DNA of 64,000 nt from Victivallales bacterium (GTDB lineage: Bacteria > Verrucomicrobiota > Lentisphaeria > Victivallales > GWF2-38-69): contig JAIPJT010000001.1 in assembly GCA_021733985.1 (NCBI GenBank), forward strand, positions 28,981-92,980. Direction: 5' to 3'. The notes beneath the pieces were generated by a model, which ran no database searches, was not told the origin of the DNA, and saw only the letters and a list, made by a program, of their open reading frames with translations. The translations under genes were made by a program, and so were the position numbers. Below, in pieces: positions 4,577 through 48,141 of the stretch; within the stretch, counting starts at the first letter, position 1, and the number at the start of each line of letters is the position of its first letter.

Positions 4577-4578
4577 AA

Positions 4579-8311: not shown

Positions 8312-9160
8312 TTATTTCATCAGCTCCTGGTAGGCATTATTTATACATCTATCCCGATTAAACTGAAGACGTTCTTTGAAGTTTCTCGCTGCATTTATAT
8401 CTACTTCCTGCACCAAACAGTTGTTTTCATTTTCTCCAAGCGAATTTATAACTTTTCCAGATGGCGAGATCACAGAACTTGATCCCATAAAATCAATGTT
8501 GTCTTCTTTTCCTGTTCTGTTTATAATAGCAAAATAAAATCCTCCGGTAATAGCTTGTCCCTTCAACATAGTCAACCAGATATCTTTATGTTTTCTTTGG
8601 AAGCAGCAGCCTGAAACATTACTATAACCTATTGCTGTCGGAGAAAAAACTATATCAGCATCCTTAAGACCGTATATTCTCTGCACTTCAGGAAACCAAT
8701 GATCCCAGCAAATCGATATACCGAAATTTCCAAACTCAGTCTTAAATAAAGGAAACCCCAAATTCCCAGGTTTAAAATAAAATTTTTCTTCATAGAGAAT
8801 ATTTTGAGGTATATGCATTTTCCGATACTTACCAATAATTTTTCCCTCTGGATTAAATACTGCAACCGTATTATAGTAGGCCGTTTTATCCTTTTCAAAG
8901 TAAGGCAGAAGCAAGTATACACTTAATTTTTGTGACAGTTCTCGTGCCATTTTCAACGAAGGCCCTTTTTCATCTTCTGCAAATCTGAAGTTATCAATAT
9001 TCTGCTTTTGAGCAAAATATCTTGTAGGAGCAAGTTCCTGTAATGATATTATTCTGGCACCGGCATTTGCCGCCATATATGAATATTCTCTGATTTTTTC
9101 AAAGTTATCGTTCTGATTATCAGAACAGCTAACCTGTATTAAACCTATTATAGTTTGCAT
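8312..9160 (-). CDS. Carbon-nitrogen hydrolase (nitrilase superfamily), N-carbamoylputrescine amidase-like
   Basis: Glu-Lys-Cys triad context: ISLQELAP, YRKMHIP, ICWDHWFPE. Also EKFYFKPG, PTAIG and FMGSS. Starts 44 nt after the NRPS stop on the same strand. Confidence 0.8.
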   Translation of the reverse strand: MQTIIGLIQVSCSDNQNDNFEKIREYSYMAANAGARIISLQELAPTRYFAQKQNIDNFRFAEDEKGPSLKMARELSQKLSVYLLLPYFEKDKTAYYNTVAVFNPEGKIIGKYRKMHIPQNILYEEKFYFKPGNLGFPLFKTEFGNFGISICWDHWFPEVQRIYGLKDADIVFSPTAIGYSNVSGCCFQRKHKDIWLTMLKGQAITGGFYFAIINRTGKEDNIDFMGSSSVISPSGKVINSLGENENNCLVQEVDINAARNFKERLQFNRDRCINNAYQELMK

Positions 9161-9204: not shown

Positions 9205-12200
9205 TCATTCAAAAAAACATGTTATATGTTCATATAATAAATCTGACTTATGCAGAATGTTTCCGTGATTACAGTCCATTTCAATTTTAGAAAAGCTCCG
9301 GCAGCCTTTGTCTATATTATTATTGGGATACTTAGACGTATAATTTACTCCGGAAAGTTTTGTCAAAACAGGGTCTGACTGAGTTGCTTTTAAAAGCTTC
9401 ACTTCTGTATAGTTTAACTGCCTTGAAATATTCTGTTCTGAAAGTTTTTTTGTAGTTTCTACATTGTTAAGATTTTTTTGAATATAATCATTTTCATAAC
9501 CCGCGTCCAATAAATATTCCTCTATATATTGCGGAAGAATATTTTCAGTTTTATTATTTCCTTCACTATCCGGCAAGCCGGAATCTATTAAAAGGAGTTT
9601 GATATTTTCTGTACCCTTTTGCTCCAGAATTGAAGCAATTTCCATAGCAATCTGTCCTCCCAGGGACCACCCCCCGATTTTATATACGGAAGAATTATGT
9701 TTTTTATGTATCAGATTCAGGTAATACTCCGCGAGTTCGGTAATATTTTCAATTTTTCTGTCATTATTGAGGTTATAATTGTCAATGCCGTAAACATTGT
9801 ATTGGCTGTTCAGGCACAGGGCAAGCTCTTTATAAACTTCACAACCGCCGATCCCGGAATGGATAAAATAGATATTTTCATGCCCTTCTTTATAGTTGTT
9901 AAGAAGCATTAATTCGCCTGATTTATTTTCAGCTTTTATACATTTAACTAATTCTGAAATATTTCTGCTGTTAAAGAACTCTGAAATTTTAATATTAGTA
10001 TTAAGGATAGAGTTAATTTCGTTAGCAAGTTGTATTGCAAGGATAGAATTTCCGCCTATCCTGAAAAAGTCATCCTTTATACCAATCTTATCTATACCAA
10101 GAACTTTTTGCCATATTTCACAAACCTGTTTTTCAAGTTCTGTTTCCGGCGCGGTATAACTACTATCCATATCCCTGAACCGCGGTTCCGGAAGAGCATT
10201 TTTATCTATTTTGCCCGAGGTGTTCAATGGGAAAGGATCCATATGAACATAGGATGAAGGAATCATATAATCGGGTAGCAGCCCGGATAAGTAATTGTTT
10301 AATTCAAAGGAGCTTATATTTTGTTTTTTTAAATTTTCAGAGGGTGTATTCGAGAACTCAGAGTCAACTGAAGAATTCAGATTTTCTCTGAAGAGATTTT
10401 TTTTCAAAGATTTCAGAGTGAAGCCTTCTCTGTAAAAGAACAGATCATATCCGGCTTTATGTTGACTGGAAAAACTTGTATAAAGTTTATATCCTTTATC
10501 TGCGGCAAGGTTATAAATTTCTTCGAGGTTATATAAATTATCACCTTCTTTCTGAAGTTCTGAATAACTGTTTACAGGGTTTTCATTGCCCTGATCCTGA
10601 TTGATCGCGTTATTTAATTTATAGTAATTCCAAATTCTTTTGTTTGGGTAATTCCTAATTGCAACATATTCTCTGTCATTATTCAAAACTTCTGGAAGTT
10701 TCATCTCTTCTGTAAACTGCTTCCATTTAATAGAAGATGATATACCGGTATTTACACTCCTCCCGACATGTAGAATTATATCGTACCTGAATAGATTCAT
10801 TTCATGCCGGCTTTTTCCTCTTTTCGGGAGCAACTCAACACAATTAACATGAGGTTTATCTTTAGCAAAATCTATAAAAAATTCCGGGGATATCAGCAGT
10901 TCCTTTTCTCTTTTTATCTTTTTTTCTACCCTTTTTTTCAGCTCTCCAGTCGTAGTAATCCGTTTATCGGATAATAGTTTATTGATTTCAACTGAAACAT
11001 GAAACTCCTCTATTAATCTAAAATCCCTTATATCACCAATATATATTTTTCCATTATCAATCTTATCAGTAAGCTTCAGCAGCAGCTCTTTTAAATAATT
11101 TAAACTAGGGAAGTACTGAACAACAGAATTTATAATAACTGTATCAAAATAGTTTAACTCCGGCAGACCGTCTATTTGACCAATCTCGTCCGCTTTTGCG
11201 GTTTCTAAGTTTATATTTTTAATATTTGTAATTTGTATTTTACTTTTTAATAGGTTTATAACGGACGAAGAAAAGTCAATTCCGTAGTACTGCCTGCATT
11301 CTTTCTGCAGAGGATATAAAAGGAGGCCTGTACCGCAGCCTATTTCAAAAATATTTTCGGGTTTTAAGGAAAATATCCTGTCTAAGGTTGAATTCTGCCA
11401 TTCCTTCATTTGATTTACGGGAATAGGTTTCCCGGTATAGGAACTGTTCCAGCCTATGAAGTTGGAATCTGCCTCGCCGCTGAAACTTTTCTGATATTCA
11501 ATTTCATACATATCAGACCAGGTTTCAACAAAATTCTCTTCCAGGCTCTCTGTTTCATTTTCGGTAGATTTATTGCCGGTGCTATAATAGGCAGCAAGGT
11601 ATTTGTTACCGTTGAATTGTTTACATAATACAACACACTGACTTATATCATCATAAGCTAAAAGCTTATTTTCTATTTCGCCAAGTTCTATACGAAAACC
11701 GCGGATTTTTACCTGATTATCATTTCTGCCAATAAATTCGATATTCCCGTCTGACAGCCATCTGCATATATCACCGGTTTTATAAATACGCAAATTTCGA
11801 TTCTCCCTGACCTCATTATCAGTTGCAAACGGATTCTCTATAAAACGTTCAGATGTCAGCTCATGCGGGTTTAAATAACCACTTGCGACTCCGTCCCCTC
11901 CTATATATAATTCTCCCGGTATTCCAATACCAACCGGGCACAGTTTCTCATCAAGAATATATACTGTCTTCCCTGAAAGAGGTTTTCCTATAGGAGCACA
12001 ATTCAGTGTTTTTTCTAAGGTTAAATCGCAGTAGGTTGCGAATGTTGTGGTTTCAGTCGGGCCGTAGACATGGACTATTCTTGTATTATAATTTTTAGAT
12101 AATACCTCCCGAACTAATTTCAGGTCGCAGGCTTCACCGCCGAAAAAAAGTTCATCAGGCAGGTAAATTGCCTCAGAATTCAGTTTAGCAAGTTGACAAA

Positions 12201-15200
12201 ACAGTGTGGTTGTCATGAAAACTTTGCTGATTTGCTTATTTTTAATTTCTTCTTTCAATTTCTTTTCATTTAACACTGTATCTTTTGTAAGCACTGCGCA
12301 TGCGGCACCGTTTGCAAGTGCAGCCCAAATTTCGAATGTCGCAGCATCAAATGATATACTTGCAAGGCATCCTATAGTATCAGATGGTTTGATTTCAGTA
12401 TAATTTGTGTTTCTGACAAGATTTACTATAGAACGATGTTCAACCATTACACCTTTGGGCTTCCCTGTAGAGCCGGAAGTATATATTACATAGGCTATAT
12501 CCCGTGGATTATTAAATCGTTCTAGACGTGAAATCGGTGTGCTATTTAACTCATGTTCCAATTCGTCTATGCAGATAATCTGTGTTCCCGGTTCAGTAAC
12601 AGATATTAAATTTTCACAATATTTCGATGATGTTAAAATCATTTTACATTTGCTGTCTTCCAGTTTATATTTCAGCCTGTCAGCAGGATCAGCATCATCA
12701 AAAGGCAAATATGCAGCGCCCGATTTTAATATCCCCAGAATTCCGGCTATCATCTCCAGTGAACGTTCTATATAAATGCCGATAAGAGGATTTTCCGGTA
12801 TTTTGTCTGCGTCACCGCCGGTAAACTTACTTTGTATTACATTTGCAATACTATTCGAACGTTTATTTAACTCTTTATAGTTCAGTTTTTTATCTTCAAA
12901 GATAACGGCGGTATTATCAGGGTATTTTAAAGCCTGTTCCTCAAACAATCTATGAATAGCCACATTTCGTGGATAATTTGTTTCAGTTTTATTCCATTCA
13001 TAAACAATTTTATCATATTCCGGTTTCGAAAATATATCGATATCTTCTACCTGTCTGTTTACATCCTTCAAGAGCCCTTTCAGTACATTTTTATAACGGG
13101 AAATTATTTGTTTTATGGTTTTGTTTTTATAAAGTGCAGTAGAGTAATTAAAAAATCCTTTGATAGTACTATTCCCGGGATTATCATTAATAAATAATAT
13201 TAAGTCAAAAATTGAAAAATGCATCTGCTGGGTTATATCCAGTTGTTTAAACAGTTTTAATTCAGTACCGAAACTCTGCGCGGCAAAACAGATATTAAAT
13301 AAACTGTGCTCGCTTTGTTTCCGCTGCAGATTCAGAGTTTCAACAACTTTCTGAAATGGAATATCGCTGTACTGAAGGTTTTCCATAGAGTCTGAAATAA
13401 CATTATCAATAAGTCCATTTACCGTAAGATTATCCTCTAAAATGAATCTTCGGGCAAACGTATTGACAAAAAGCCCAATCAAATCTTCTGTCTGAGGGTA
13501 GTGGCGATTAGCGTTTACAACCCCGACAGTTATATCATTTTGACGAGTATATTTATATAGTAGAATATAGAATCCTGTAAGTAAAATATTATACAGTGTC
13601 GTTCCTTTTTGTTTAGCAAGTTTAACCAATGCTTTTGAAGTAACACTGTCTATTTCTAATTTGCAGTTATCACCGGAATAATCAACTTTTTCTGGTCTGT
13701 TGAAATCCGTGGGAAAATTTAACGGTTTGAGGTCTTTTAATTTATCCTTCCAATATTCAAGCTGTTTTCTGTATAGATTCCCCGAAAGGAATTTCCTTTG
13801 CCAAACTGCAAAATCCTTATATTGAATTGGAAGTTCCGGCAAAATATCCTTTCTTTTTTCAGAACTGGCGGTATATAAGGTTTCAAGCTCTTTAAAAAGT
13901 ATATCAATAGACCAGCCATCTACGGCAATATGATGGAAGTCAAAAAAAGCATAACAGTTAACCTCTGTTTTATAAATAATAAGCCTTAACGGGTATTCCG
14001 TTTCCAGGTTAAAAACATATTTTATTGATTTTTCAACATGCTCTTTTACTTCTTCTAAGGTATTAAATTTGTATTCCTCAATTCCCAAAACTTCGTCCTG
14101 TACCGCCTGTAAATACAAGCCGTCCTCGTTTTGTATAAAAACGGTTCTTAGTGCTTCATGACGTTTAACAATTTTCTGAATAGCATTCTTAAAACCGGAA
14201 AGATTAATATCTGCACCCAGTTCAAGTATAATCGGAGTTTTGTAAGTTTTAGTTGCTCCGTATTTATACAGAAACCACAAGCGTTCCTGAGCAAATGATA
14301 ACGGGGCCTTTTTCAGGTCTGTCCTTGGAATGAATATTTTATCAGTAGATATTGAGCTGTTTGAAATAATCGAACTTATAGTACTGTATTTGAAAATTTC
14401 AGCCACATTTAAATTTATTTCGGTCTCTTTTGAAATTTTATTTGCAAGTTTAATAACGAGCATAGAGTTACCGCCCAACTTAAAAAAATCATCGGTTACG
14501 CCGACTTTTTCGACTTTCAGTACATCCTGCCATATCTTACATAATTTTCTTTCTAAGTCAGTAACAGGCTCTACATATTCAAGGCTGACTTCTTTTAGTT
14601 CAGGGGCCGGCAATGCTTTTTTATCCACCTTACCGGAATGAGTCAGCGGGAATTCTTCAACCAGTACAAATATTGAGGGTATCATATAGTCAGGCATTTT
14701 TTCCGCAAGAAAGGAACTAAGTTCATTTGAAGTTAATTTTTGTTTTTCAGATTTTTTTAGTGGGTCTGTTGAAATATCGGAAACTACTGGAACTTTACAG
14801 TTTTCAATGAATAGAGATTTTTTTGAAAAATCAAAAGATTTTTTATAGAAAACGAGGTCACAGCAGTATCTTTTTTCAAGAGAAAGACCCGCATACAGTT
14901 TATAGCCATTTTCTTCTGCCAGTCTGAATAGTTCCTCAATTGAGTAGAAGTTCTGCTTTTCTTTTTTATATTTAAAATATTCCTTTACTATATCTTCATG
15001 CTCGGGTTTTTCTTTTATCGATTCAACAATTTTATGATAATCATATATCCTTTTAACGGGATAATTTTTTACTGCTATATACCCGTCATTGTCTGAATTT
15101 AATACCTCTTTAACAGAAAAGCTGTTATTATATATTTTCCATTCAAGTTCAGTTTTAGTACTTTTATTATTTTCTTTTCCTATATGTATAATTATGTCAT

Positions 15201-18200
15201 ACCTGAAAATATTCATTTCAATGAGGCTTTTACCTCTTTTAGGCAGAAGTTCTACATAATTTATTCTTGAATCACGCTGTGCAAGCTGTATGAAAAATTC
15301 AGGTGATACAATTAACTCCTTAATTCTTTCAGTTAATTCATTCAGTTTATACTTAATTTTACCGACACTTAAATTTTCGTTATTTTCAACGGCTTTATAG
15401 AGTTCTATTGATGCAAAAAATTCATTTATTATCCTGTAATCGCGAATATCCCCTATAAAAATCGTTCCTTCTCCCTGTCTTTCTATTAATTTCAGGATAA
15501 GTTCTTCAAGATAGTCAAGGCTTGGAAAATACTGTATTACGGAATTAATAACAGACGTGTTCAGTGACTCAGAATCCGGTATCAGATTAAGAATTCCTAT
15601 ATCATCAGCCTTTCCAGTGCCCACAAATACGTTATCAATTTTTTCATTTTTAATATCTGTCAGCAGTTTATCAATCACTGAAGCTGAAGGGTCTATTCCG
15701 TAATATTTTTTGCAGAATTTCCGGAGGGGATATAAAAGAAGTCCGGAACCGCAGCCTATTTCAAATATATTTTCAGGCCTTAACTCCAGTATTCTTTCTA
15801 CAGTAGTATCGCGCCATTCTTCCATTTCTTCCAGCGGGATTGCCCTGTTCGTATAAGAACTGTTCCAGACAGAAAAATCATATCCGACCTGCCCGGTATA
15901 ATCTTCCTGGTAGGCCAGTTCATACATCTCAGTCCAGTCTCCTATAAATTCCTCTTCCTTTTCTGATGAAGAGGACTCATTTTCTCCAAGCATATTATAA
16001 TACGCTATAAGATATTTTTTCCCATCCTGTTCTTTACAAAGTACTACACTTTGCTTTATCTGTTCATGCGAGGAAAGCTTGCTTTCTATTTCACCTAACT
16101 CAATGCGCTGGCCGTTAAGTTTTATCTGATCATCGTTCCTGCCTAAAAAATCTATATTCCCGTCAGGCAGCATTCTTACGCTGTCACCGGTTTTATATAA
16201 AACTGCATTTTTATTTCCGTTTTTTTCTGCTCTTGTCTGAAAAGGGTTACTTATGAAATTTTCAGAAGTTTTCTTCTGATTATTAATATAGCCAAGCCCG
16301 ACACAGTCTCCCGTTACATAAAGTTCTCCCTGAACACCCTGCGGAACAGGTTTTAAATATTTATCGAGAATAAAGTGTTTTGTATTTTGTATAGGTTTAC
16401 CAATAGGAATATACGCTCCGTACTGTTCAGGTACAGATTCAAATTTATAGTGAGTTATATCATCGGAACACTCAGTTGGTCCGTAAACATTAGCCATAGC
16501 TATTTCCGGATAAAGTGAAAACCATCTCCGACAGTAGTCAAAAGGCAGCCCTTCTCCGTTCATTATGAACCATTTTAGATAACTTATGTCTGCTTTTTGT
16601 CCTTCTTCTTCAAGTTCTTCAAGAATTAAAACCATATGGGATGGAACGCTTTCAAATATACTTATTTTATTTTTTTTAATAGAGAGAAGAAGATTAGTTA
16701 CGTCCCAGGCATTATTGTCCGATAAAATCACTGTAGTGCCGCCATTAAGAAGGGCTGTCAGAAACTGCCAGACCGAAACATCAAATGTCTGGGCAGAAGT
16801 CTGCGCTACTCTGTCTGAAGTATTTATCCTGAAATCGTTAATTTTTGCAAAAATATGATTCAGCATTCCCTTATGTCGAACCATTGCGCCTTTCGGGGTT
16901 CCAGTCGAACCGGATGTAAAAATAATATAGGCAAGACTTTCCGGGTCATATTCAGCAACACCTGTAACTGAATAATCATATTTTTTCTGTGCATCCTCCG
17001 GTAAAATTATTTTTGCCGAGTTTTCAGCTAACTCCAGCGCGTCATTATAATATTTTTTTTCTGCTAAAATAAAATCATACTCAAACTGTCTTAATATTGA
17101 CCGGTTTTTCTCTTTAGGATGAAGGGGGTTCAAAGGTACAAAAGCATAGCCTTTTCTCCAGACAGCGAGCATAGAAGAGAGATAATATATGTTTCTATCT
17201 AAATAAAAAACGATTAAAGCATTATTTTTATCTGTTTGTTTAGTGTTTTTAATTAGAGTCGACATGGAAACAGTCAGCCTATGCAATTCTTTATAACTTA
17301 ATCTTTTATCTTCATATATTGCGGCAATATTATCAGGACTTTTTTCCACCTGCTCTTCAAAAAGCTGAAACACTGATTTTTCTTTAGGAAAATAAACTTC
17401 ATTGCAATTATAATCATATATCAGTTTTTTATATTCTTCGTTAGATAATAATGAAAGTTCGCTGTGAGCTTTATTTAAATTCTCCGGAATTGCTGTTAAT
17501 ATTCGCTGTAGATGGAGGATGAATTTTTCTGCTTTACTTTCATCTAAATATTCGCCCGCATATTTTAAGCTGATATATAATTTGTTTTGCAGATTATATG
17601 CTGTTATTCCTAATGGATAATCAAGTTTTTCTACGGCATCCCTGAACCTGAATGACAATCGGTCTGAAAAATTCTCTTCCGCCGGGTGGTTTGCAAAGAA
17701 AAAGAGACTGTGAAAAAGTCGTTTCCCACCGCTTTGAAGTTCTGCCAGAGATATTGAATTATAATTAGTAATTTCATAAATTCCAGAATGTATCTTTTTA
17801 AGCAATTCAACAACAGTACTGTTTTCTTCCCAGCTAATAATAAGCGGAAGAGTGTTTATGAATAGTCCAGCACTTTTTTCAATATCTTCCACGGGAATGT
17901 TTCTCGCAGAAACTGTAGTTCCAACTGCAGTCGTTTCATCGCTCGTATAAACCTGAATAAGTTTATGCCAAGCAAATTGTACAAATGTATTAAGAGTTAA
18001 GCCTTCAGATACTGCTATAGTTTTAAGTTTACTGTAATCTTTTCCTTCAATAATAACCGATGTATCCTTTGATTCTTTGACGGACTTTAAAGTATTCAGG
18101 TCAGTTTTTCTGCTCAGCATATTATTGAGGTCATTAGCTGAATCCAGTTCTCTGATTTTATTTTTCCAGAATTCATTGGCAATGTCACTGGAATTTATCC

Positions 18201-21200
18201 ATTGTTTCTGTGCCTGAATATAAGCAGTATCTCTTTCCTGAATTATGTCTATGCCTGCAGCTAGTTTAAAGTAAGTATCGTGAACATAATTAAAAATAAA
18301 AGGCGTACTCCATCCATCCAGAATTGAATGATGACTATTCATGATCAGAACAAAGTGATTATCTGCCTGTTTTATCAGAGAAAGCCGCATCAGTTCCGGT
18401 TTTTCCAGGTCAAATGGATATTTTCTATCGGAAACTTGTATCTCTTTAATTTTCTTATCAATATCTTCGTTCCCGTTAATATCATGAATTTTTAAGTTAA
18501 GTTCACTCTTTTTACAAATTATCTGTATAGGGTTTTCATCCCAGTTGAAACATAACCTTAACGCCGGATATTTTTTCAGTGCATACTCCCAGGACTTTTT
18601 ATAGAGATTAACGTTAAGATTAATATTATAATCGAAAAGAAGCTGTACCCTGTATGCTTCATCTTCCGGATTTGCCAGAACATAATATATAAAACCCTGC
18701 TGTAAGCTGTTTGCCGGTAAAATGTCTTCAATTTCAAGTCTGTTCTGTAGTTTATCAAGAAGTTCTGAACTGATATCTGCCGCACTGAAATCTGAAGCTG
18801 TAAACTCAGTGTTTTTTTTCTCTGAACAGTGTTTTATTACCTTTTCAAGGTGTTTATTAAAGCTGCCAAACAACTTTTCGGCTTCGTTTTCAGGAAGTTT
18901 TACTGCAACCTCAAAGCTCAGTTTTCCATTACTTACAAAGCCGTTTACGTCTATGATATTATTATTTTTATTCTTAATACTTATGTTTCTGCCTGCTGAC
19001 TGAGGAATTATCTGCCAGTCTTCAGTTTTTGTATTAAATTGACCTAAATAGTTAAAGCTTATTGGCGGTAAACTGTGTTTTGAAAGCTTTTCCGAGTTGC
19101 CAAAATACTTCAAAGCACCGTAGCCTATTCCTTTATTAGGAATACTTCTTAGTGTCTCCTTAATGTTTTTTATTGAATCTTTCAAGCTTTTTTGAAGCTC
19201 CAGTTTTAGCGGAAAGACTGAAGTAAACCAGCCGACAGTCTGTGAAAGGTCAATATCATCGAAAATTTCTTCTCTACCGTGCCCTTCAAGAGTTAAATAA
19301 TTCTGACTCTTCCCGCTCCATTCTTTTAGAGAATACGCAAAGGCCGTTAATAATAAATCATTCACTTCAGTATTATAGGCTTTATTGCTCAAATGCAGCA
19401 GGTTATAAGTATATTCTTCTGAAAGGCCTACTCTATTTATATGATTATTGCCTAAAGTAAATTTCGTATAAACAGGCTGACCTGATATTGTTTTTTCCCA
19501 GAATTCCGTTTCATTTTTATAACTTTCAGCATAACTTTTTACTGCTTTAACCCATTGACGATAACTCGAAGTTTTCCTTCCAGTATCTGTATTATTATAT
19601 ATATCTTTTATATTTTCTTTGATTATTCTCCACGATACTGAATCAATAATCAGATGATGTGCCGCGAAAAATATTCGAGCTGTTCTATCCTCAAAACCAT
19701 AAAGATATGCAATTGACCACATTGGCCCGGTTTTAATATTAAAAACTGACTGAAGATCTGTAAATTTTTTGTATAACTCTGCGTCAGAACAGTTATTTAC
19801 ATTGAGAATGACCACTTCAGGAACATAAGTACTTTTATTATATTTTTGTTTATGGCCATCGAAAGTAGCTCTTAGGATATCATTTCGTTGAGCAAGAATA
19901 TATGGAATATCCTTCAGTTTACTAAAATCCAACTCGGGAACTTTTATCAGAAATGACTGGTTCCAGTGGTTAGGCTCTGCAAAACTGTTTTCAAAAAATT
20001 GTTTCTGCACCGGCAGCAGATCAAATTCCCCTTCCAGAACTCCCTGTTCAGTAGTTGAATGCAGTATTTTGCTGTTCCTATCCTGCAATTCAGAAAGTTT
20101 ATTTATTGTTCTCCTCTCAAAAATATCTTTAATTCCGGCTTTAAAACCTATTTTCCGCATTTTTGATACAAGCTGAATGCTAAGTATGGAATCTCCGCCT
20201 ACCCTGAAAAAGTCATCCTCTATCCCAATTTTATCTATTCCCAATATTTCCTCCCAGATATCGCAAAGCTGTCGCTCTATATCTGTAGTCGGCGGGACAG
20301 AATTAACCGCATCATCCCTGAATCCGGGTTCCGGCAGTTCTTTCTTATCAACTTTGCCGGAAATATTTAGAGGAAATTTATCCATATAAACAAAAACAGA
20401 AGGCACCATATAGTCCGGAAGATGATCTCTCATATATACTTGCAGTTCTTCTTCCAAAGTTGAATGTTGAATGTTGAATGTTGAATTATTAACTGTATAG
20501 TAAGCAGCAAGATATTTATCGCCGGATTCACGCTCTTTACATAGTACCACAGACTGCTTGACTTTCTCATGTAAAGACAGTTTACTTTCTATCTCACCCA
20601 ATTCTACACGGAAATCTCTTATTTTGACCTGCTCATCTCTACGCCCCATGAATTCTATATTGCCGTCAGGTAAATAACGGCAGATGTCTCCCGTTTTATA
20701 TATACGCTGATTACAGACATTCTTTTTGTCCTTATTGGTGGCAACAAAAGGATTAGACATAAAACGTCCTGCTGTTTGCTCCGGACGGCTATAATAACCT
20801 CTTGCCAAACCGTCTCCTCCTATATACAATTCGCCAGGGACACCTACGGGTACAGGCTGTAAAGAAGGATTGAGCAGGTAAACGTGCGTATTGGATATGG
20901 GAGAACCGATAGTTAGCGAATCCTTCAGCTGCCCTCTCTTATATTTTGCAGAAGTAGTGCTAACCGTTGATTCAGTGGGGCCGTAATTATTAATAACAGT
21001 AACTCTCTTGTTCCATACTGCAGCTATGTCAATGTTACAAACATCACCGCCGACGACAACTCTTTTAAGTTTAAAGTCCAAATCCGGGTTTATTACAGGA
21101 AGAAACTGTGACGGAATATTCAGGTGTGTAATATTGTTATTCAGTAAATAAGTTTCAAGACCGTGAACATCATTTAATAATCTATCCGAAATAATAAAAA

Positions 21201-23196
21201 GAGTAGCCCCTCCTAATATAGAAATAAAAATTTGCTCAACTGATGCGTCAAAAGCGTAAGAATTAAATAATAATATATTTTCCATACTTTCAATTTCATA
21301 GAAGCGGATTCTGTCTGTTATTAAATTAACCACATTTCTATGTTCAATCATCACGCCTTTTGGATACCCGGTAGAACCTGATGTATAAATTACATAAGCA
21401 AGATTTTCAGGTTTACCGTTAATATCCGGATTATATTTAGGGGCATACTCTATCTTTTCTACATGACCGTCTATACATAACGCAAGTATATCGTCTTCAA
21501 CAAGAAATAATAGATCATTAATTCTGTTACTCGAAGTGAGTACCATTCTGCATCCGCAGTCGTTTATCTTAAACTTTAAACGGTCCTCAGGGTCTGACCG
21601 GTCAAACGGTACATATGCGGCCCCTGATTTCAGTATCCCGAGAATACCGATTATCATATCCAGTGAACGCTCTATATATATACCTATTAAAGTATCGCCT
21701 TTAACCTCCTCGCTCCATTGTTCTGCATATTCTCTGCGTATTGTATGGGCAAGCCGGTTGGCTTTTTCATTTAACTCTCTATAGGTCAATTTTTCATTTT
21801 CAAAGACAACAGCCGCTTTATCCGGAGTACTCTCCGCCTGCTCCTCAAATAGCTGATGAATTGTTTTGTCTCTCGGATAAATGGTATAAGTGTCGTTCCA
21901 GTCATAGATAATTTTTTTGTATTCAGATAAAGATAAAACTGAAATACCATTAACATCAGCTTCATGATGCTCCAATATCAATGAAAGAAGATTAACAAAA
22001 TGTTTATTAAGTCTGCTTAAAAAAGTTTCTTCAAATAGATTCTTCTGTGTATAGATAGAATAGAAGAATCTATCATCCGACTCTTCAAAGGCTAAATGGA
22101 TTTCCGTATCTCCTACATTTGTAGGGAAAATTGCTTTTGAGTTTCTACCGTGAAGATTTAACTTTACAGGAGAAAGTTCAGTTTCAGCTATTGAAGTGTT
22201 AATATTAAAATTCTCTGAACCATAATGCAATGCGACCTCTGCCACACTCAGGTATTTGTTTTTACGGCTGAAGTTTGTTCTGTCATTTTGTAGAATATCT
22301 AAAATATTCCCTTTATTTTCATGAGGATAAAGCAGTGTATTAACAAATGCGCCTTTTATGTCCTGAAATTGTTTTCCCCTCGTATTAACTGGAAAAGAAA
22401 TTACTAATTTTTCCTGGTTACAATATTTACTTAACAATACTCCCCAAATAACTTTGATAATATTAAAAACAGAAAAATCTGTCTTCTCTGAAAAGTTTTT
22501 TAACTTAGCATAAAGTTTATTTTCAAACGATTTTAACCCGGTTGATATAATCTTAAAAGCGGTGTCTCTTTTAAAATAAGGCAAATCGGCTTTCAGTGGA
22601 AAGTCATTTAATCTTTTAAGTTCATAATTTAGTTCAGCCTTCCCTATCTGTTTCCGTTCCCATTTTATATAATTTTTTAAGTAGCTGATTTCATCTTTAT
22701 CGGAGATAGAAGTTCCTCTTGGTTTATGATAATGCTGTTCTACTTCTTTTATTAATTTTGCTCTCTGTGTTCCGTCTAATATAATATGATGAAAATTAAG
22801 AAGAAGTGAAGCCGTGCCAATGTAGTTTCTTTTAAAAAGCACAAATCGGAATAAATTACCATTTTCAAGGTCAAACGGTTTTTTTATCTGCTCATCTAAC
22901 TTCTTCTGGTATTCTTCCTCGCTTAAGACATTGCATTCTTTTAATCTTGCCACCACACTATCATGTATAATTTGCTCAAAATCTTCACCGTTAAATCTAA
23001 AATTACTTCTCAGATTATAATTTGAATCTACAGTATTCTGAAGAGCTGTTCTGAGTCTGTTTATATCCGGAATACCTTCATATTCGTAAACCCCGTAAAG
23101 ATGATACCTCACCTGCTCCTCTGACCCAAGTTTTTGTGCTTCTAAATAAAATATCCTGGAAAAATTACTTGCTTTTAATATAGTTTTATCTGACAT
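9205..23196 (-). CDS. Nonribosomal peptide synthetase, 3 modules: C-A-T-E / C-A(MT)-T / C-A(MT)-T-TE
   Basis: 4663 aa. Module 1 anchors: C1 HHIILDG (22771-22791); A1 YTSGSTGYPKG (~21355-21390); T1 FFRVGGDS with Ser1003 (20188-20190); E domain HHLIIDSVSW plus EGHGRE (HH at 19654-19659). Module 2 anchors: C2 HHSILDGWS (18328-18333); A2 FTSGSTGTPKG (~16891-16920); MT1 EIGCGSGL (15739-15762), MT spanning ~14650-16000; T2 FFKLGGNS with Ser2911 (14464-14466). Module 3 anchors: C3 LSFAQERLWF and HHIAVDGWS (13930-13935); A3 YTSGSTGKPKG (~12451-12483); MT2 EIGCGTGL (11323-11346), MT spanning ~10240-11570; T3 FFRIGGNS with Ser4384 (10045-10047); TE GWSLGG with Ser4511 (9664-9666). Confidence 0.95.
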   Translation of the reverse strand: MSDKTILKASNFSRIFYLEAQKLGSEEQVRYHLYGVYEYEGIPDINRLRTALQNTVDSNYNLRSNFRFNGEDFEQIIHDSVVARLKECNVLSEEEYQKKLDEQIKKPFDLENGNLFRFVLFKRNYIGTASLLLNFHHIILDGTQRAKLIKEVEQHYHKPRGTSISDKDEISYLKNYIKWERKQIGKAELNYELKRLNDFPLKADLPYFKRDTAFKIISTGLKSFENKLYAKLKNFSEKTDFSVFNIIKVIWGVLLSKYCNQEKLVISFPVNTRGKQFQDIKGAFVNTLLYPHENKGNILDILQNDRTNFSRKNKYLSVAEVALHYGSENFNINTSIAETELSPVKLNLHGRNSKAIFPTNVGDTEIHLAFEESDDRFFYSIYTQKNLFEETFLSRLNKHFVNLLSLILEHHEADVNGISVLSLSEYKKIIYDWNDTYTIYPRDKTIHQLFEEQAESTPDKAAVVFENEKLTYRELNEKANRLAHTIRREYAEQWSEEVKGDTLIGIYIERSLDMIIGILGILKSGAAYVPFDRSDPEDRLKFKINDCGCRMVLTSSNRINDLLFLVEDDILALCIDGHVEKIEYAPKYNPDINGKPENLAYVIYTSGSTGYPKGVMIEHRNVVNLITDRIRFYEIESMENILLFNSYAFDASVEQIFISILGGATLFIISDRLLNDVHGLETYLLNNNITHLNIPSQFLPVINPDLDFKLKRVVVGGDVCNIDIAAVWNKRVTVINNYGPTESTVSTTSAKYKRGQLKDSLTIGSPISNTHVYLLNPSLQPVPVGVPGELYIGGDGLARGYYSRPEQTAGRFMSNPFVATNKDKKNVCNQRIYKTGDICRYLPDGNIEFMGRRDEQVKIRDFRVELGEIESKLSLHEKVKQSVVLCKERESGDKYLAAYYTVNNSTFNIQHSTLEEELQVYMRDHLPDYMVPSVFVYMDKFPLNISGKVDKKELPEPGFRDDAVNSVPPTTDIERQLCDIWEEILGIDKIGIEDDFFRVGGDSILSIQLVSKMRKIGFKAGIKDIFERRTINKLSELQDRNSKILHSTTEQGVLEGEFDLLPVQKQFFENSFAEPNHWNQSFLIKVPELDFSKLKDIPYILAQRNDILRATFDGHKQKYNKSTYVPEVVILNVNNCSDAELYKKFTDLQSVFNIKTGPMWSIAYLYGFEDRTARIFFAAHHLIIDSVSWRIIKENIKDIYNNTDTGRKTSSYRQWVKAVKSYAESYKNETEFWEKTISGQPVYTKFTLGNNHINRVGLSEEYTYNLLHLSNKAYNTEVNDLLLTAFAYSLKEWSGKSQNYLTLEGHGREEIFDDIDLSQTVGWFTSVFPLKLELQKSLKDSIKNIKETLRSIPNKGIGYGALKYFGNSEKLSKHSLPPISFNYLGQFNTKTEDWQIIPQSAGRNISIKNKNNNIIDVNGFVSNGKLSFEVAVKLPENEAEKLFGSFNKHLEKVIKHCSEKKNTEFTASDFSAADISSELLDKLQNRLEIEDILPANSLQQGFIYYVLANPEDEAYRVQLLFDYNINLNVNLYKKSWEYALKKYPALRLCFNWDENPIQIICKKSELNLKIHDINGNEDIDKKIKEIQVSDRKYPFDLEKPELMRLSLIKQADNHFVLIMNSHHSILDGWSTPFIFNYVHDTYFKLAAGIDIIQERDTAYIQAQKQWINSSDIANEFWKNKIRELDSANDLNNMLSRKTDLNTLKSVKESKDTSVIIEGKDYSKLKTIAVSEGLTLNTFVQFAWHKLIQVYTSDETTAVGTTVSARNIPVEDIEKSAGLFINTLPLIISWEENSTVVELLKKIHSGIYEITNYNSISLAELQSGGKRLFHSLFFFANHPAEENFSDRLSFRFRDAVEKLDYPLGITAYNLQNKLYISLKYAGEYLDESKAEKFILHLQRILTAIPENLNKAHSELSLLSNEEYKKLIYDYNCNEVYFPKEKSVFQLFEEQVEKSPDNIAAIYEDKRLSYKELHRLTVSMSTLIKNTKQTDKNNALIVFYLDRNIYYLSSMLAVWRKGYAFVPLNPLHPKEKNRSILRQFEYDFILAEKKYYNDALELAENSAKIILPEDAQKKYDYSVTGVAEYDPESLAYIIFTSGSTGTPKGAMVRHKGMLNHIFAKINDFRINTSDRVAQTSAQTFDVSVWQFLTALLNGGTTVILSDNNAWDVTNLLLSIKKNKISIFESVPSHMVLILEELEEEGQKADISYLKWFIMNGEGLPFDYCRRWFSLYPEIAMANVYGPTECSDDITHYKFESVPEQYGAYIPIGKPIQNTKHFILDKYLKPVPQGVQGELYVTGDCVGLGYINNQKKTSENFISNPFQTRAEKNGNKNAVLYKTGDSVRMLPDGNIDFLGRNDDQIKLNGQRIELGEIESKLSSHEQIKQSVVLCKEQDGKKYLIAYYNMLGENESSSSEKEEEFIGDWTEMYELAYQEDYTGQVGYDFSVWNSSYTNRAIPLEEMEEWRDTTVERILELRPENIFEIGCGSGLLLYPLRKFCKKYYGIDPSASVIDKLLTDIKNEKIDNVFVGTGKADDIGILNLIPDSESLNTSVINSVIQYFPSLDYLEELILKLIERQGEGTIFIGDIRDYRIINEFFASIELYKAVENNENLSVGKIKYKLNELTERIKELIVSPEFFIQLAQRDSRINYVELLPKRGKSLIEMNIFRYDIIIHIGKENNKSTKTELEWKIYNNSFSVKEVLNSDNDGYIAVKNYPVKRIYDYHKIVESIKEKPEHEDIVKEYFKYKKEKQNFYSIEELFRLAEENGYKLYAGLSLEKRYCCDLVFYKKSFDFSKKSLFIENCKVPVVSDISTDPLKKSEKQKLTSNELSSFLAEKMPDYMIPSIFVLVEEFPLTHSGKVDKKALPAPELKEVSLEYVEPVTDLERKLCKIWQDVLKVEKVGVTDDFFKLGGNSMLVIKLANKISKETEINLNVAEIFKYSTISSIISNSSISTDKIFIPRTDLKKAPLSFAQERLWFLYKYGATKTYKTPIILELGADINLSGFKNAIQKIVKRHEALRTVFIQNEDGLYLQAVQDEVLGIEEYKFNTLEEVKEHVEKSIKYVFNLETEYPLRLIIYKTEVNCYAFFDFHHIAVDGWSIDILFKELETLYTASSEKRKDILPELPIQYKDFAVWQRKFLSGNLYRKQLEYWKDKLKDLKPLNFPTDFNRPEKVDYSGDNCKLEIDSVTSKALVKLAKQKGTTLYNILLTGFYILLYKYTRQNDITVGVVNANRHYPQTEDLIGLFVNTFARRFILEDNLTVNGLIDNVISDSMENLQYSDIPFQKVVETLNLQRKQSEHSLFNICFAAQSFGTELKLFKQLDITQQMHFSIFDLILFINDNPGNSTIKGFFNYSTALYKNKTIKQIISRYKNVLKGLLKDVNRQVEDIDIFSKPEYDKIVYEWNKTETNYPRNVAIHRLFEEQALKYPDNTAVIFEDKKLNYKELNKRSNSIANVIQSKFTGGDADKIPENPLIGIYIERSLEMIAGILGILKSGAAYLPFDDADPADRLKYKLEDSKCKMILTSSKYCENLISVTEPGTQIICIDELEHELNSTPISRLERFNNPRDIAYVIYTSGSTGKPKGVMVEHRSIVNLVRNTNYTEIKPSDTIGCLASISFDAATFEIWAALANGAACAVLTKDTVLNEKKLKEEIKNKQISKVFMTTTLFCQLAKLNSEAIYLPDELFFGGEACDLKLVREVLSKNYNTRIVHVYGPTETTTFATYCDLTLEKTLNCAPIGKPLSGKTVYILDEKLCPVGIGIPGELYIGGDGVASGYLNPHELTSERFIENPFATDNEVRENRNLRIYKTGDICRWLSDGNIEFIGRNDNQVKIRGFRIELGEIENKLLAYDDISQCVVLCKQFNGNKYLAAYYSTGNKSTENETESLEENFVETWSDMYEIEYQKSFSGEADSNFIGWNSSYTGKPIPVNQMKEWQNSTLDRIFSLKPENIFEIGCGTGLLLYPLQKECRQYYGIDFSSSVINLLKSKIQITNIKNINLETAKADEIGQIDGLPELNYFDTVIINSVVQYFPSLNYLKELLLKLTDKIDNGKIYIGDIRDFRLIEEFHVSVEINKLLSDKRITTTGELKKRVEKKIKREKELLISPEFFIDFAKDKPHVNCVELLPKRGKSRHEMNLFRYDIILHVGRSVNTGISSSIKWKQFTEEMKLPEVLNNDREYVAIRNYPNKRIWNYYKLNNAINQDQGNENPVNSYSELQKEGDNLYNLEEIYNLAADKGYKLYTSFSSQHKAGYDLFFYREGFTLKSLKKNLFRENLNSSVDSEFSNTPSENLKKQNISSFELNNYLSGLLPDYMIPSSYVHMDPFPLNTSGKIDKNALPEPRFRDMDSSYTAPETELEKQVCEIWQKVLGIDKIGIKDDFFRIGGNSILAIQLANEINSILNTNIKISEFFNSRNISELVKCIKAENKSGELMLLNNYKEGHENIYFIHSGIGGCEVYKELALCLNSQYNVYGIDNYNLNNDRKIENITELAEYYLNLIHKKHNSSVYKIGGWSLGGQIAMEIASILEQKGTENIKLLLIDSGLPDSEGNNKTENILPQYIEEYLLDAGYENDYIQKNLNNVETTKKLSEQNISRQLNYTEVKLLKATQSDPVLTKLSGVNYTSKYPNNNIDKGCRSFSKIEMDCNHGNILHKSDLLYEHITCFFE
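20459..20486 (-). repeat. Perfect heptanucleotide tandem repeat (GTTGAAT)x4 inside the NRPS A1 domain
   Basis: Read directly: gttgaat gttgaat gttgaat gttgaat. On the coding strand it is (ATTCAAC)x4, encoding ...NSTFNIQHST... between the A8 and A9/A10 motifs of module 1. Confidence 0.95.
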
Positions 23197-23370
23197 TAAA
23201 CAACCTCAATGCTTTTGTTTGTAACGTTAAAATTATTTAAACAAATTTCTACCTTATCATCCGATACAGGTCATACCGTACGGTGTGATGGATAAATAGA
23301 CCAAATCGTTTTGGGTATAACATAAAACAAGATAAGTTGCTTCTCATGTAAAATAATAATAACGGGTAAA

Positions 23371-23984
23371 CCTCCAGTTCTACTGGAGGACTCGTGTTGA
23401 TTTGACATTTGCAGGAATATGAAGAAGATTCTCCTGGCTGTGAATCCTTCTTTGGATACAGAAGAGGAGAAAATCCATGAATTCATATCAAACTTTAGCC
23501 CATACAAGCTGGGAATGCAAATATCATGTAGTTTTTATCCCAAAATACAGGAGGAAGATATTATATAAACAACTAAAAAAGGATTTGGGAAAAATTTTTA
23601 AAGAACTTGCAGGTAGAATTGACAGCACAATAGAAGAAGGCCATATCTGTAAAGACCATGTTCATATGTTGATATCAATTCCTCCGAAGCACTCTGTTTC
23701 TAAAGTTATAGGCTTTATAAAAGGTAAAAGCGCAATATATATCGCCAAAATTTTTCTGAACCACAAGATGAATTATGGAGATCAAAATTTTTGGGCACGT
23801 GGTTATTTCGTATCAACTGTTGGAAGAGATGAAAAAAACGATTATAGAATATATAAAGAACCAGGAACAAATGGATAAAAAATTTGATCAAGGTGATTTA
23901 TTTAATCCGTAGTAATAAATAATGCAATAGAGTTTAATCCCTTTGAGGGATTCCACAGTTTAATGCCACCGGCTATGCCGGTGG
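23371..23984 (+). mobile_element. IS200-type (IS200/IS605 family, tnpA-only) insertion sequence; ends approximate
   Basis: tnpA is flanked by subterminal hairpins. Left: CCTCCAGttctaCTGGAGG (23371-23389). Right: AATCCCtttgaGGGATT (23936-23952) and CCACCGGctatgCCGGTGG (23966-23984). The true termini may extend beyond the outermost hairpins used as the coordinates. An imperfect stem overlaps the tnpA RBS (tccttct...agaagagga). No tnpB. Confidence 0.6.
23477..23878 (+). CDS. tnpA: IS200/IS605 family Y1 (HUH) transposase TnpA, apparent frameshift near the 3' end
   Basis: YHVVFIPKYRR, HUH motif HVHMLIS and catalytic-Tyr region ARGYFVSTVGRDE. After an A7 run (23832-23838) the family-typical tail (TIIEYIKNQEQMDKKFDQGDLFNP, stop at 23910-23912) continues in the -1 frame. 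Confidence 0.85.
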   Translation: MNSYQTLAHTSWECKYHVVFIPKYRRKILYKQLKKDLGKIFKELAGRIDSTIEEGHICKDHVHMLISIPPKHSVSKVIGFIKGKSAIYIAKIFLNHKMNYGDQNFWARGYFVSTVGRDEKNDYRIYKEPGTNG

Positions 23985-23991
23985 TCATTTA

Positions 23992-33475: not shown

Positions 33476-33501
33476 ATTAATGCATCCTGATATGTTATAA
33501 A

Positions 33502-35148: not shown

Positions 35149-35435
35149 ATTTTTTATCCTTAACATAAATTTATAATAAAAAACAAGCTATAAAGATATC
35201 TTAAATCCCTGCAAAATCAATCTTTATACGCAGCTAACGAAGATAAAAAAAGGTTCACCCTGCCAGGAAAGAACAGTAAGAACCAGTACGCGAGTGGATG
35301 GGCATTTCTATTCGGACTTCTTCAAATATTAATAAAAAAAAGGCTAAATATTCATTTAAAGCAGCTTACTGTAAATAAAATATATCTATTTTTTATAAAT
35401 TATTTTACGGATTCAGGTTAGAGAATATTTGATCT

Positions 35436-47812: not shown

Positions 47813-47858
47813 AATCGAATCCTTGAAATGCTATTTAGTGTCGAATTATTTTGATTTA

Positions 47859-47871
47859 TGATTTTAGATAT
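47859..47871 (-). promoter_or_regulatory. Shared 13-mer ATATCTAAAATCA upstream of cheA (possible -10/operator)
   Basis: The exact 13-mer also occurs upstream of mcp2 at 52402-52414. Both are preceded by AATCAAA. It contains TAAAAT. Confidence 0.3.
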
Positions 47872-48133: not shown

Positions 48134-48141
48134 GATTACCA

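What the first reader, a model, noticed from the sequence alone, without database searches (positions are those of the whole stretch)
9205..23196. Orphan single-ORF trimodular NRPS predicting an N-capped D-L-L tripeptide with two backbone N-methylations
A single 4663-aa ORF reads C-A-T-E / C-A(MT)-T / C-A(MT)-T-TE. The catalytic anchors are listed in the feature entry. Four points follow from established NRPS logic. First, a C domain ahead of the first A domain is the position of lipo-initiation (starter) C domains. Second, the E domain (HHLIIDSVSW, EGHGRE) followed by a C domain starting LPANSLQQGFIYY implies a D-residue at position 1. Third, both later A domains are split between A8 and A9 (LPDYMIPS) by ~440-aa SAM methyltransferases. 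These carry the N-MT-type motifs (I/V)WNSSYT..IP, EIGCG(S/T)GLLL, NSV(I/V)QYFPS and N(I/L)FRYDII. Fourth, the TE (GWSLGG, later D and H) releases the product. The window contains no PPTase, MbtH, acyl-ligase/ACP or obvious regulator. The gene sits between housekeeping genes with an IS element at its 5' end, which suggests horizontal acquisition. The product class (acyl-D-Xaa-NMe-Xaa-NMe-Xaa) is an inference.
Basis: partly seen in the sequence, partly recalled or inferred. Interest (0 to 1): 0.72.

Follow-up and report, generated by a model that had tools for sequence, protein, structure and literature searches.

The report
Orphan three-module peptide synthetase gene
One intact 4,663-residue gene in an uncultured Victivallales (Lentisphaerota) bacterium encodes a complete three-module non-ribosomal peptide synthetase. 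It should make a small N-capped, twice N-methylated tripeptide; the enzyme is of a well-known kind but has no close relative and no known product.

Summary
ORF 9205..23196 (minus strand, 4663 aa) reads C-A-T-E / C-A(M)-T / C-A(M)-T-TE, and every quoted motif is present.

- **Domain subtypes.** The E domain matches solved E domains. C2 matches C domains that follow E domains (DCL type). C3 matches LCL domains.
- **Methyltransferases.** Both sit between A-motifs a8 and a9. Both carry the six published motifs of type I backbone N-methylating M domains, and MT2 matches TioS (5WMM).
- **Thioesterase.** The TE has a Ser/Asp/His triad.
- **C1.** It is highly divergent. It belongs to a rare clade whose ten closest relatives all sit at the very N-terminus of their proteins, with no synthetase gene upstream. 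It is no closer to solved starter C domains than to elongation C domains. Starter function is therefore supported by position, but the donor is unknown.
- **Source.** The sequence comes from a Victivallales metagenome-assembled genome (MAG; MCF7790384.1). The best relatives elsewhere are no more than about 41% identical.
- **Accessory genes.** The window holds no PPTase, MbtH, acyl ligase or ACP.
- **Horizontal transfer.** Composition does not support recent transfer; codon usage looks native.
- **Neighbour.** The adjacent CN-hydrolase is a conserved Victivallales gene that is not linked to a synthetase elsewhere.

Verdict: a real, ordinary-type orphan NRPS. It is a new member of a known kind and of moderate genome-mining interest.

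The parts
9205..23196 (-). Whole NRPS ORF, 4663 aa plus stop (NCBI MCF7790384.1, MAG Victivallales bacterium)
21892..23196 (-). C1, N-terminal condensation domain (aa 1-435), HHIILDG at aa 136. Member of a rare clade found only at protein N-termini; presumed starter C.
20317..21879 (-). A1 adenylation domain (aa ~440-960), uninterrupted. Stachelhaus code DAENVGNVSK (polar or basic residue, unassigned).
20077..20289 (-). T1 carrier domain (aa ~970-1040), GGDSI at aa 1000
18742..20049 (-). E epimerization domain (aa ~1050-1485): HHLIIDS at 1180, EGHGRE at 1304, FNYLGQ
17407..18729 (-). C2 condensation domain (aa ~1490-1930), DCL type, HHSILDG at 1622
16012..17364 (-). A2 adenylation domain, N-terminal part with motifs a1-a8 (aa ~1945-2395). 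Code DVWSINVDDK (unassigned).
14722..15999 (-). M2, type I backbone N-methyltransferase inserted between a8 and a9 (aa ~2400-2825)
14587..14721 (-). A2 C-terminal part with a9 (MPDYMIP) and a10 (SGKVDK) (aa ~2826-2870)
14347..14559 (-). T2 carrier domain (aa ~2880-2950), GGNSM at 2908
12997..14319 (-). C3 condensation domain (aa ~2960-3400), LCL type, LSFAQERLWFL and HHIAVDG at 3088
11587..12954 (-). A3 adenylation domain, N-terminal part a1-a8 (aa ~3415-3870). Code DAFFFGVTFK, 9/10 to the Ile/Val code DAFFLGVTFK.
10303..11574 (-). M3, type I backbone N-methyltransferase between a8 and a9 (aa ~3875-4298); 46% identical to M2
10162..10302 (-). A3 C-terminal part with a9 (LPDYMIP) and a10 (SGKIDK)
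9931..10143 (-). T3 carrier domain (aa ~4352-4422), GGNSI at 4381
9208..9879 (-). TE thioesterase (aa ~4440-4663): Ser in GWSLGG (S4511), Asp at +27, His in DCNHGNIL
23477..23878 (+). IS200/IS605 Y1 transposase, divergent from the NRPS start. A neighbour, not part of the synthetase. The independent Logan contig ends just before it.
8312..9160 (-). CN-hydrolase (nitrilase superfamily), 44 nt downstream on the same strand. Probably co-transcribed but not shown to belong: orthologues in other Victivallales are never next to an NRPS.
6943..8262 (+). MFS transporter, convergent with the CN-hydrolase. A possible exporter (speculative).

Best explanation
The ORF is a complete, self-contained type I NRPS assembly line in one protein.

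Module 1 (C1-A1-T1-E) loads a polar or basic L-amino acid. C1, acting as a starter condensation domain, caps its amine with an acyl group from a donor that is not part of this protein, most likely an acyl-CoA or acyl-ACP. E then epimerises the residue to D.

C2, a D-donor-specific (DCL) domain, joins it to residue 2. Residue 2 is N-methylated on T2 by the S-adenosylmethionine (SAM) methyltransferase embedded in A2. C3 (LCL) adds residue 3, predicted Ile or Val, which is likewise N-methylated. The TE releases the product.

Predicted product: cap-D-Xaa1-(N-Me)Xaa2-(N-Me)Ile/Val.

Shown here: domain order, intact catalytic motifs, domain subtypes by homology, and the N-terminal-only distribution of the C1 clade. 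Inferred: the nature of the cap, the amino acids, and whether release is by hydrolysis or cyclisation.
For: **Architecture and motifs:**

**E domain.** Top solved hits are all E domains: GrsA E at 250 bits, then PvdL, BacC, TycB and TycA.

**C2.** Best hits are McyB, BacC residues 478-916, TycB1 and PvdL residues 559-1006, at 118-167 bits. The BacC and PvdL stretches lie directly after the E domains that one search matches in those chains. TycC6 (LCL) scores only 58 bits.

**C3.** Best hits are Txo2, Txo1, 5U89 and TycC6 at 195-212 bits, against 73 bits for TycB1.

**M domains.**
- A2-M2 aligns with the TioS interrupted A domain 5WMM at E 1e-90.
- M2 alone hits essentially only 5WMM, at E 2e-36; the one other match is marginal (E 0.0014).
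- Both M domains carry motifs i-vi of type I Mb(a8-a9) domains from PMC8341866, in the right order.

**C1.**
- In a search of 1.84 billion representatives, the ten domains scoring 200-280 bits all start at residue 1-30 of their protein. The next best scores 107 bits, and no internal domain exceeds 96 bits.
- Those proteins include C-A-T-TE, C-A-T-KS and C-A-T-E-C-A-T-TE.
- In the four metagenome loci with usable upstream sequence, the upstream genes are kinases, a response regulator, an MFS transporter or unassigned ORFs. None is an NRPS.
- The clade keeps R63, H136, H137, D141, W179, R273 and G282 invariant. By motif position these correspond to the structural and catalytic residues listed in PMC1894796.

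**A3.** Its code is 9/10 identical to DAFFLGVTFK, which sits at Ile/Val positions in cyanopeptolin.
Against: C1, and a profile of its clade, score no better against solved starter C domains than against elongation C domains. Starter C: SrfAA 41/87 bits, RzmA 37 bits, and no hit to the CDA starter C. Elongation C: Txo2 58/118, LgrA 47/107, TycC6 56/94.

There is no acyl ligase, ACP, PPTase or MbtH in the 64 kb window, so the donor cannot be named. The A1 and A2 codes match nothing in the searchable literature. No expression or product data exist; this is a MAG.
Confidence: 0.6

Rival explanations
1. C1 is not a lipo-initiating domain. Instead it accepts an aryl, aminoacyl or peptidyl thioester from a separate loading protein or NRPS encoded elsewhere in the genome, as EntF, SnbC and AcmB accept aryl acids. 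The product would then be an aryl-capped tripeptide or a longer peptide.
For: C1 and its clade are at least as similar to elongation (LCL) C domains as to solved starter C domains. Only 64 kb of the genome is visible. Rausch 2007 includes aryl-acid-accepting first C domains among starter domains.
Against: All ten closest relatives are N-terminal. Several sit in proteins that run from C to TE, including a single-module C-A-T-TE. None of the four related loci with upstream sequence has an NRPS, aryl-acid ligase or carrier protein gene upstream. C1 starts at residue ~5, leaving no room for an N-terminal docking domain.
Confidence: 0.22
2. C1 is a catalytically idle remnant. The enzyme would make an uncapped D-Xaa-NMe-Xaa-NMe-Xaa tripeptide, or a cyclised derivative.
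For: Two clade members carry HHIIxDE instead of HHxxxDG. C1 is very divergent from all characterised C domains.
Against: The window's C1 keeps HHIILDG. The clade also conserves the Arg, Trp, Arg and Gly positions associated with folding and catalysis. A C-A-T-TE relative would be pointless with a dead C domain.
Confidence: 0.1
3. The gene is a recently acquired horizontal island, brought in with or next to the IS200 element.
For: An IS200 Y1 transposase lies 280 bp upstream. No orthologue was found among 185,579 species-representative genomes; the best match is 41% identical and aligns to internal modules. Orthologues of the adjacent CN-hydrolase in other Victivallales MAGs have no NRPS beside them.
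Against: NRPS GC is 0.348 and GC3 is 0.303, both inside the range of the 26 other genes. Its RSCU correlation with them is 0.968, the highest in the window. No GC step appears in the profile. IS200 elements carry no cargo, and synteny among these MAGs is too poor to define an empty site.
Confidence: 0.2

Closest known systems
TioS A4-M-A4 interrupted adenylation domain of thiocoraline synthetase (PDB 5WMM); family 1 (A8MbA9) of Lundy et al. 2020, PMC8341866
   Same: A SAM methyltransferase of about 420 aa is inserted between A-motifs a8 and a9. All six type I motifs are present in both modules. M2 aligns to TioS M at E 2e-36, and A2-M2 aligns to the TioS interrupted A domain at E 1e-90.
   Different: Motif i has Val for Gly in M2, and motif vi lacks the leading Asn in both. 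The best database relatives of M2 are at most 39% identical. No MbtH partner gene is nearby, whereas TioS was solved with TioT.
Starter (lipo-initiation) C domains: SrfAA-Cs (PDB 8F7F) and RzmA-Cs (PDB 7C1H); class defined by Rausch et al. 2007, PMC1894796
   Same: It is the very first domain of the assembly line, has low similarity to the other C domains of the same protein (27-29%), and keeps an intact HHxxxDG.
   Different: It is not specifically similar. SrfAA-Cs scores 41.5 bits and RzmA-Cs 37 bits even with a clade profile, below the LCL and DCL domains. It forms its own rare clade, with 10 representatives seen.
C-A-T-E initiation modules of prodrug pathways (ClbN of colibactin, XcnA of xenocoumacin), which make N-acyl-D-Asn (recalled from my own knowledge)
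   Same: The first-module layout is the same, C-A-T-E followed by a D-specific C domain. It predicts an N-acyl-D-amino acid at the N-terminus.
   Different: The A1 code DAENVGNVSK matches the Asn code DATKVGEVGK at only 6/10 positions (code comparison from memory). No ClbP-like peptidase or beta-lactamase-fold gene was found in the window. No direct sequence comparison with ClbN was possible.
P0022, an uncharacterised 2743-aa metagenomic NRPS, C-A-T-E-C-A-T-TE
   Same: Its C1-clade starter domain scores 270 bits. It has the same C-A-T-E first module, then a C domain, and ends in a TE, all in one protein.
   Different: It has two modules rather than three, no methyltransferases, and a different first A code (DTQDIGAVEK). 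Its product is also unknown.

Membership tests
Type I modular NRPS | Repeated C-A-T modules with core motifs (HHxxxDG, A3-A10, GGxS) and a terminal release domain | tested here: met
   Pfam finds 4 C/E, 3 A, 3 T and 1 TE.
Starter C domain (Rausch 2007) | [quoted passage not shown] | tested here: met
   C1 starts at residue ~5 of the ORF, and no NRPS gene lies upstream in the window. All ten closest relatives are N-terminal. No NRPS lies upstream in L007-L010.
Starter C domain (Rausch 2007) | It groups with known starter C domains rather than with LCL or DCL domains | tested here: inconclusive
   Against solved chains, SrfAA-Cs scores 41.5/87 bits and RzmA-Cs 37 bits. Txo2 scores 58/118 and TycC6 56/94. 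No NaPDoS or antiSMASH subtype HMMs were available.
Starter C domain (Rausch 2007) | It transfers an acyl (non-aminoacyl) donor to the first amino acid | not testable with these tools
   This needs biochemistry or product analysis.
Epimerization domain | HHxxxD plus EGHGRE and FNYLG motifs, and closest to known E domains | tested here: met
   All ten best solved hits are E domains, at 201-250 bits.
DCL condensation domain (C2) | It lies directly downstream of an E domain, and its sequence is closest to C domains that follow E domains | tested here: met
   The best hits are McyB, BacC 478-916, TycB1 and PvdL 559-1006, all above LCL TycC6 at 58 bits.
LCL condensation domain (C3) | No E domain upstream, an LSFAQERLWFL-type C1 motif, and closest to LCL domains | tested here: met
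   Txo2 scores 212, TycC6 195 and TycB1 73 bits.
Family 1 interrupted A domain, A8MbA9 (type I M domain; PMC8341866) | The M domain is inserted between A-motifs a8 and a9 | tested here: met
   Module 2: a8 at 2352, SAM motif at 2477, a9 near 2834. Module 3: a8 at 3823, SAM motif at 3949, a9 at 4307.
Family 1 interrupted A domain, A8MbA9 (type I M domain; PMC8341866) | Motifs mb(a8-a9) i-vi are present, and the type II/III O-methyltransferase motifs are absent | tested here: met
   All six were found in order in both M domains, with a few relaxed positions (motif table read). Neither DVGx(N/H)xG nor GxGxxA is present (my reading of the translation).
Family 1 interrupted A domain, A8MbA9 (type I M domain; PMC8341866) | Backbone N-methylation of the T-bound aminoacyl thioester | not testable with these tools
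   Inferred from homology to TioS 5WMM.
Type I NRPS thioesterase | Alpha/beta-hydrolase fold with GxSxG Ser, Asp and His | tested here: met
   Pfam PF00975 hit. GWSLGG at 4509. Asp at +27 and His in DCNHGNIL. Hits to the NocB, fengycin and EntF TEs.
ClbN-type N-acyl-D-Asn prodrug system | An Asn-specific first A domain and a ClbP-like periplasmic peptidase in the locus | tested here: not met
   The A1 code is not the Asn code. No such peptidase appears among the ORFs scanned.

The most novel reading that the evidence does not exclude
C1 may represent a previously unclassified, rare family of initiation condensation domains. About ten 50%-identity clusters were seen among 1.84 billion representatives, always at the N-terminus, in front of varied first amino acids, and in NRPS and NRPS-PKS lines. 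This family is no closer to the solved lipo-initiation domains than to elongation domains, and may use a donor other than the classical beta-hydroxy fatty acyl thioester. The Victivallales enzyme would then make a new capped, di-N-methylated tripeptide, one of the first assembly-line products predicted for Lentisphaerota.
Probability: 0.3. Interest if true: 0.5.

Novelty: new member of a known kind. Interest (0 to 1): 0.3.

Why it matters
Lentisphaerota/Victivallales are almost unexplored for natural products. The library search for Victivallales plus "nonribosomal peptide" returned only four papers, one of them a Lentisphaerae MAG announcement. A single intact gene that encodes the whole assembly line is a convenient target for synthesis and heterologous expression. 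Its small, D-configured, N-methylated product should resist proteases. The divergent N-terminal C clade could widen the known set of initiation chemistries. Otherwise every domain behaves as textbook NRPS logic predicts.

Tried and rejected
- **Full-length protein search.** The 4663-aa search timed out, so domains were searched separately.
- **C1 word-index search.** It found only one weak relative, at 28% identity.
- **Genome-collection scan with C1-A1.** It found four loci, but the matches fall on internal modules of other NRPS or NRPS-PKS genes. They are not orthologues.
- **Plasmid tblastn with C1.** Only generic NRPS hits at 27% identity or less.
- **Rfam scan of the window.** No matches.
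- **Literature search for the A1 and A2 codes.** No matches. The Arg, Lys and Dab codes I recalled could not be verified, so A1 and A2 are left unassigned.
- **CN-hydrolase as a tailoring enzyme.** Considered and rejected. Orthologues at 56-67% identity in other Victivallales MAGs sit in unrelated contexts with no adjacent NRPS.
- **ClbN-type prodrug reading.** Considered and rejected. There is no Asn code and no ClbP-like peptidase.
- **Recent module duplication or assembly artefact.** Rejected. M2 and M3 are 46% identical, and the only DNA repeat is 154 nt at 72% identity.
- **Promoter and terminator scans.** The counts are not clearly above the shuffled controls. The only useful point is that no terminator-like site lies on the minus strand between the NRPS and the CN-hydrolase.
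Full report
**Observation**

The window holds one ORF at 9205..23196 on the minus strand, 4663 aa (translation). Pfam reports four Condensation-family stretches, three AMP-binding, three PP-binding, two SAM-methyltransferase regions and one Thioesterase. A motif scan gives the order C1(HHIILDG 136)-A1-T1-E(HHLIIDS 1180, EGHGRE 1304)-C2(1622)-A2[M2]-T2-C3(3088)-A3[M3]-T3-TE(GWSLGG 4509). The only departure is that the a9 motif of module 2 reads MPDYMIP rather than LPDYMIP. An open frame of this length in 35% GC DNA cannot arise by chance (about 1e-150 by my arithmetic). The only internal DNA repeat is 154 nt at 72% identity between the two MT regions, so the gene is not an assembly duplication. 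The same protein is found on an independent Logan assembly contig.

**Source**

An exact look-up identifies the protein as MCF7790384.1, 'amino acid adenylation domain-containing protein', from a Victivallales bacterium MAG on a 127,915-bp contig. A second near-identical MAG has the gene broken at a contig end. The organism therefore belongs to Lentisphaerota, in the PVC group.

**Domain subtypes**

- **E domain.** Its ten best solved relatives are all epimerization domains: GrsA E at 250 bits, then PvdL, BacC, TycB3 and TycA.
- **C2.** Its best solved relatives are McyB, BacC residues 478-916, TycB1 and PvdL residues 559-1006, at 118-167 bits. For BacC and PvdL, one search shows these stretches lie directly after the E domains of those chains. 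The LCL domain TycC6 scores 58 bits. C2 is therefore DCL-like, as expected after an E domain.
- **C3.** It starts with LSFAQERLWFL. It is closest to Txo2, Txo1, 5U89 and TycC6 (195-212 bits), against 73 bits for TycB1. It is LCL.
- **T1.** It carries GGDSI. From my own knowledge, this is the form usual before E domains.
- **TE.** It hits the NocB, fengycin and EntF thioesterases. Its Ser lies in GWSLGG, its Asp 27 residues later, and its His in DCNHGNIL.

**Methyltransferases**

In both later modules the SAM-binding motif lies between a8 and a9. A2-M2 aligns in one stretch with the TioS interrupted A domain 5WMM at E 1e-90. M2 alone hits 5WMM at E 2e-36; the only other solved match is marginal (E 0.0014).

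The classification of Lundy et al. (PMC8341866, read) lists six motifs for type I backbone N-methylating M domains at a8-a9. All six occur in order in both M2 and M3:
- DFSVWNSSY / NFIGWNSSY
- IFEIGCG(S/T)G
- YYGID(P/F)S
- (N/D)T(S/V)(V/I)INSV(I/V)QYFPSL(D/N)YL
- KEL(I/L)(V/I)SPEFF
- (I/H)EMN(I/L)FRY

The motifs of the O-methylating types II and III are absent. M2 and M3 are 46% identical to each other. They are at most 39% identical to anything in the 5.8-billion-protein collection, where the hits are NRPS-embedded methyltransferases of cyanobacteria, acidobacteria and actinomycetes.

**C1, the uncertain part**

Against solved structures, C1 scores at most 58 bits, with LCL, DCL and starter domains intermixed. 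The word-index search found one relative at 28% identity.

The exhaustive HMMER search of 1.84 billion representatives was re-scored per domain. Ten domains score 200-280 bits (28-38% protein-level identity), and every one starts at residue 1-30 of its protein. The next best scores 107 bits, and none of the 459 long internal domains exceeds 96 bits. The proteins carrying these domains include C-A-T-TE, C-A-T-KS and C-A-T-E-C-A-T-TE, as well as longer lines running from C to TE. Their first A-domain codes differ.

Five metagenome loci carry clade members at 34-36% identity. In the four with usable upstream sequence, the upstream genes are histidine kinases, a response regulator, an MFS transporter or unassigned ORFs. 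None is an NRPS, acyl ligase or carrier protein.

Within the clade, R63, H136, H137, D141, W179, R273 and G282 are invariant. By motif position these match the structural and catalytic residues listed by Rausch et al. (PMC1894796).

A profile of the clade still scores elongation domains above the solved starter domains. Txo2 scores 118 bits, LgrA 107 and TycC6 94, against SrfAA-Cs at 87 and RzmA-Cs at 37. Rausch et al. place starter domains next to LCL and note that they are heterogeneous, so this result does not contradict a starter role. It does mean the class assignment rests on position and distribution, not on similarity to characterised enzymes. The donor is unknown.

**Substrates**

I aligned the three A domains to GrsA-PheA. 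I recalled that sequence from memory and checked that it returns DAWTIAAICK at the canonical positions and has 1098 residues.

| A domain | Stachelhaus code | Reading |
|---|---|---|
| A1 | DAENVGNVSK | unassigned |
| A2 | DVWSINVDDK | unassigned |
| A3 | DAFFFGVTFK | Ile or Val |

A3 is 9/10 identical to DAFFLGVTFK, which occupies the Ile/Val positions of cyanopeptolin synthetases (PMC2533009). A1 resembles several polar codes at 6/10: Asn DATKVGEVGK, the cyanopeptolin Ahp-position code DVENAGVVTK, and Lys DAESIGSVCK (the last from memory). A2 has two acidic pocket residues and, from memory, resembles cyanobacterial Arg codes. Neither code is in the searchable literature.

**Surroundings**

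On the minus strand, reading downstream from the NRPS:
- A CN-hydrolase starts 44 nt after the NRPS stop. No terminator-like site lies between them.
- A convergent MFS transporter follows.
- An RND efflux pair comes next.

Upstream lies an IS200 Y1 transposase, then a PMT_2 glycosyltransferase, nfo, a PHP hydrolase, an amino-acid permease, GlnRS and GluRS. Six-frame motif scans and Pfam scans of all sizeable ORFs find no PPTase, MbtH, stand-alone ACP or further adenylating enzyme.

The CN-hydrolase has orthologues at 56-67% identity in other Victivallales MAGs. They sit in three different contexts, and none is next to an NRPS. I therefore treat it as a resident gene and not part of the pathway.

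**Horizontal transfer**

The NRPS has GC 0.348 and GC3 0.303, inside the range of its neighbours. Its RSCU correlation with the other genes is 0.968, the highest in the window. The GC profile shows no step. The gene has no orthologue among GTDB species representatives and is missing beside the CN-hydrolase orthologues. It is therefore lineage-specific, but there is no sign of recent arrival. The Logan contig ends just before the IS200 gene, which suggests the IS is multi-copy.

**Comparison and verdict**

Every domain fits established NRPS families. The interrupted A domains are members of family 1 (A8MbA9). The first module has the C-A-T-E layout of ClbN-type initiation modules, but the Asn code and the ClbP-like peptidase are missing, so it is not filed there.

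The whole enzyme is an orphan: relatives are at most about 41% identical and its product is unknown. It comes from a phylum with almost no natural-product record. It is a new member of a known kind. The mildly unusual element is the rare N-terminal C clade. Interest 0.3.

Noticed in passing
window 45404-56619: A Wsp-like chemosensory cluster. It comprises a CheA-receiver hybrid (802 aa), two MCPs, two CheW genes, a receiver-GGDEF response regulator and a CheR with TPR repeats. This suggests chemosensory control of c-di-GMP in a Victivallales genome.
   Followed up: no
window 23370-23990: An IS200/IS605 element. It has a Y1 transposase (23477-23878), a hairpin (CCTCCAGTTCTACTGGAGG, ~23381-23399) on one side and a GC-rich hairpin (23965-23985) on the other. 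The independent Logan contig L001 stops just short of it, as expected for a multi-copy repeat.
   Followed up: partly
window 31790-35166: Adjacent GlnRS (annotated as a GlnRS/YqeY fusion, 561 aa) and an unusually long GluRS (554 aa). The catalytic-domain Pfam match of the GluRS is split into two stretches, which suggests an insertion.
   Followed up: no
window 5944-6942: A 1-kb AT-rich gap (GC about 0.32) between the RND efflux operon and the MFS gene. It has no ORF longer than 55 aa and no Rfam match. No TetR-type regulator lies where one is often found.
   Followed up: partly
alignment A1 (P0052, P0058): Two members of the C1 clade carry HHII(V/I)DE instead of HHxxxDG; the Gly is replaced by Glu. 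It is unclear whether these are active.
   Followed up: no
L089 2661-5777: In another Victivallales-type contig, an A-T-reductase (carboxylic-acid-reductase-like, 1038 aa) gene lies about 4 kb from the CN-hydrolase orthologue. It is a different, NRPS-like enzyme in the same order.
   Followed up: no
L010 57-5028: A C1-clade C-A-T-KS gene starts 6 nt after an MFS transporter that is split into two ORFs on the same strand. This echoes the MFS gene near the window's NRPS.
   Followed up: no
window 35436-38605: A transglutaminase-like protein (671 aa) overlaps a DUF58 protein (388 aa) on the same strand, followed by a SIMPL/DUF541 protein.
   Followed up: no
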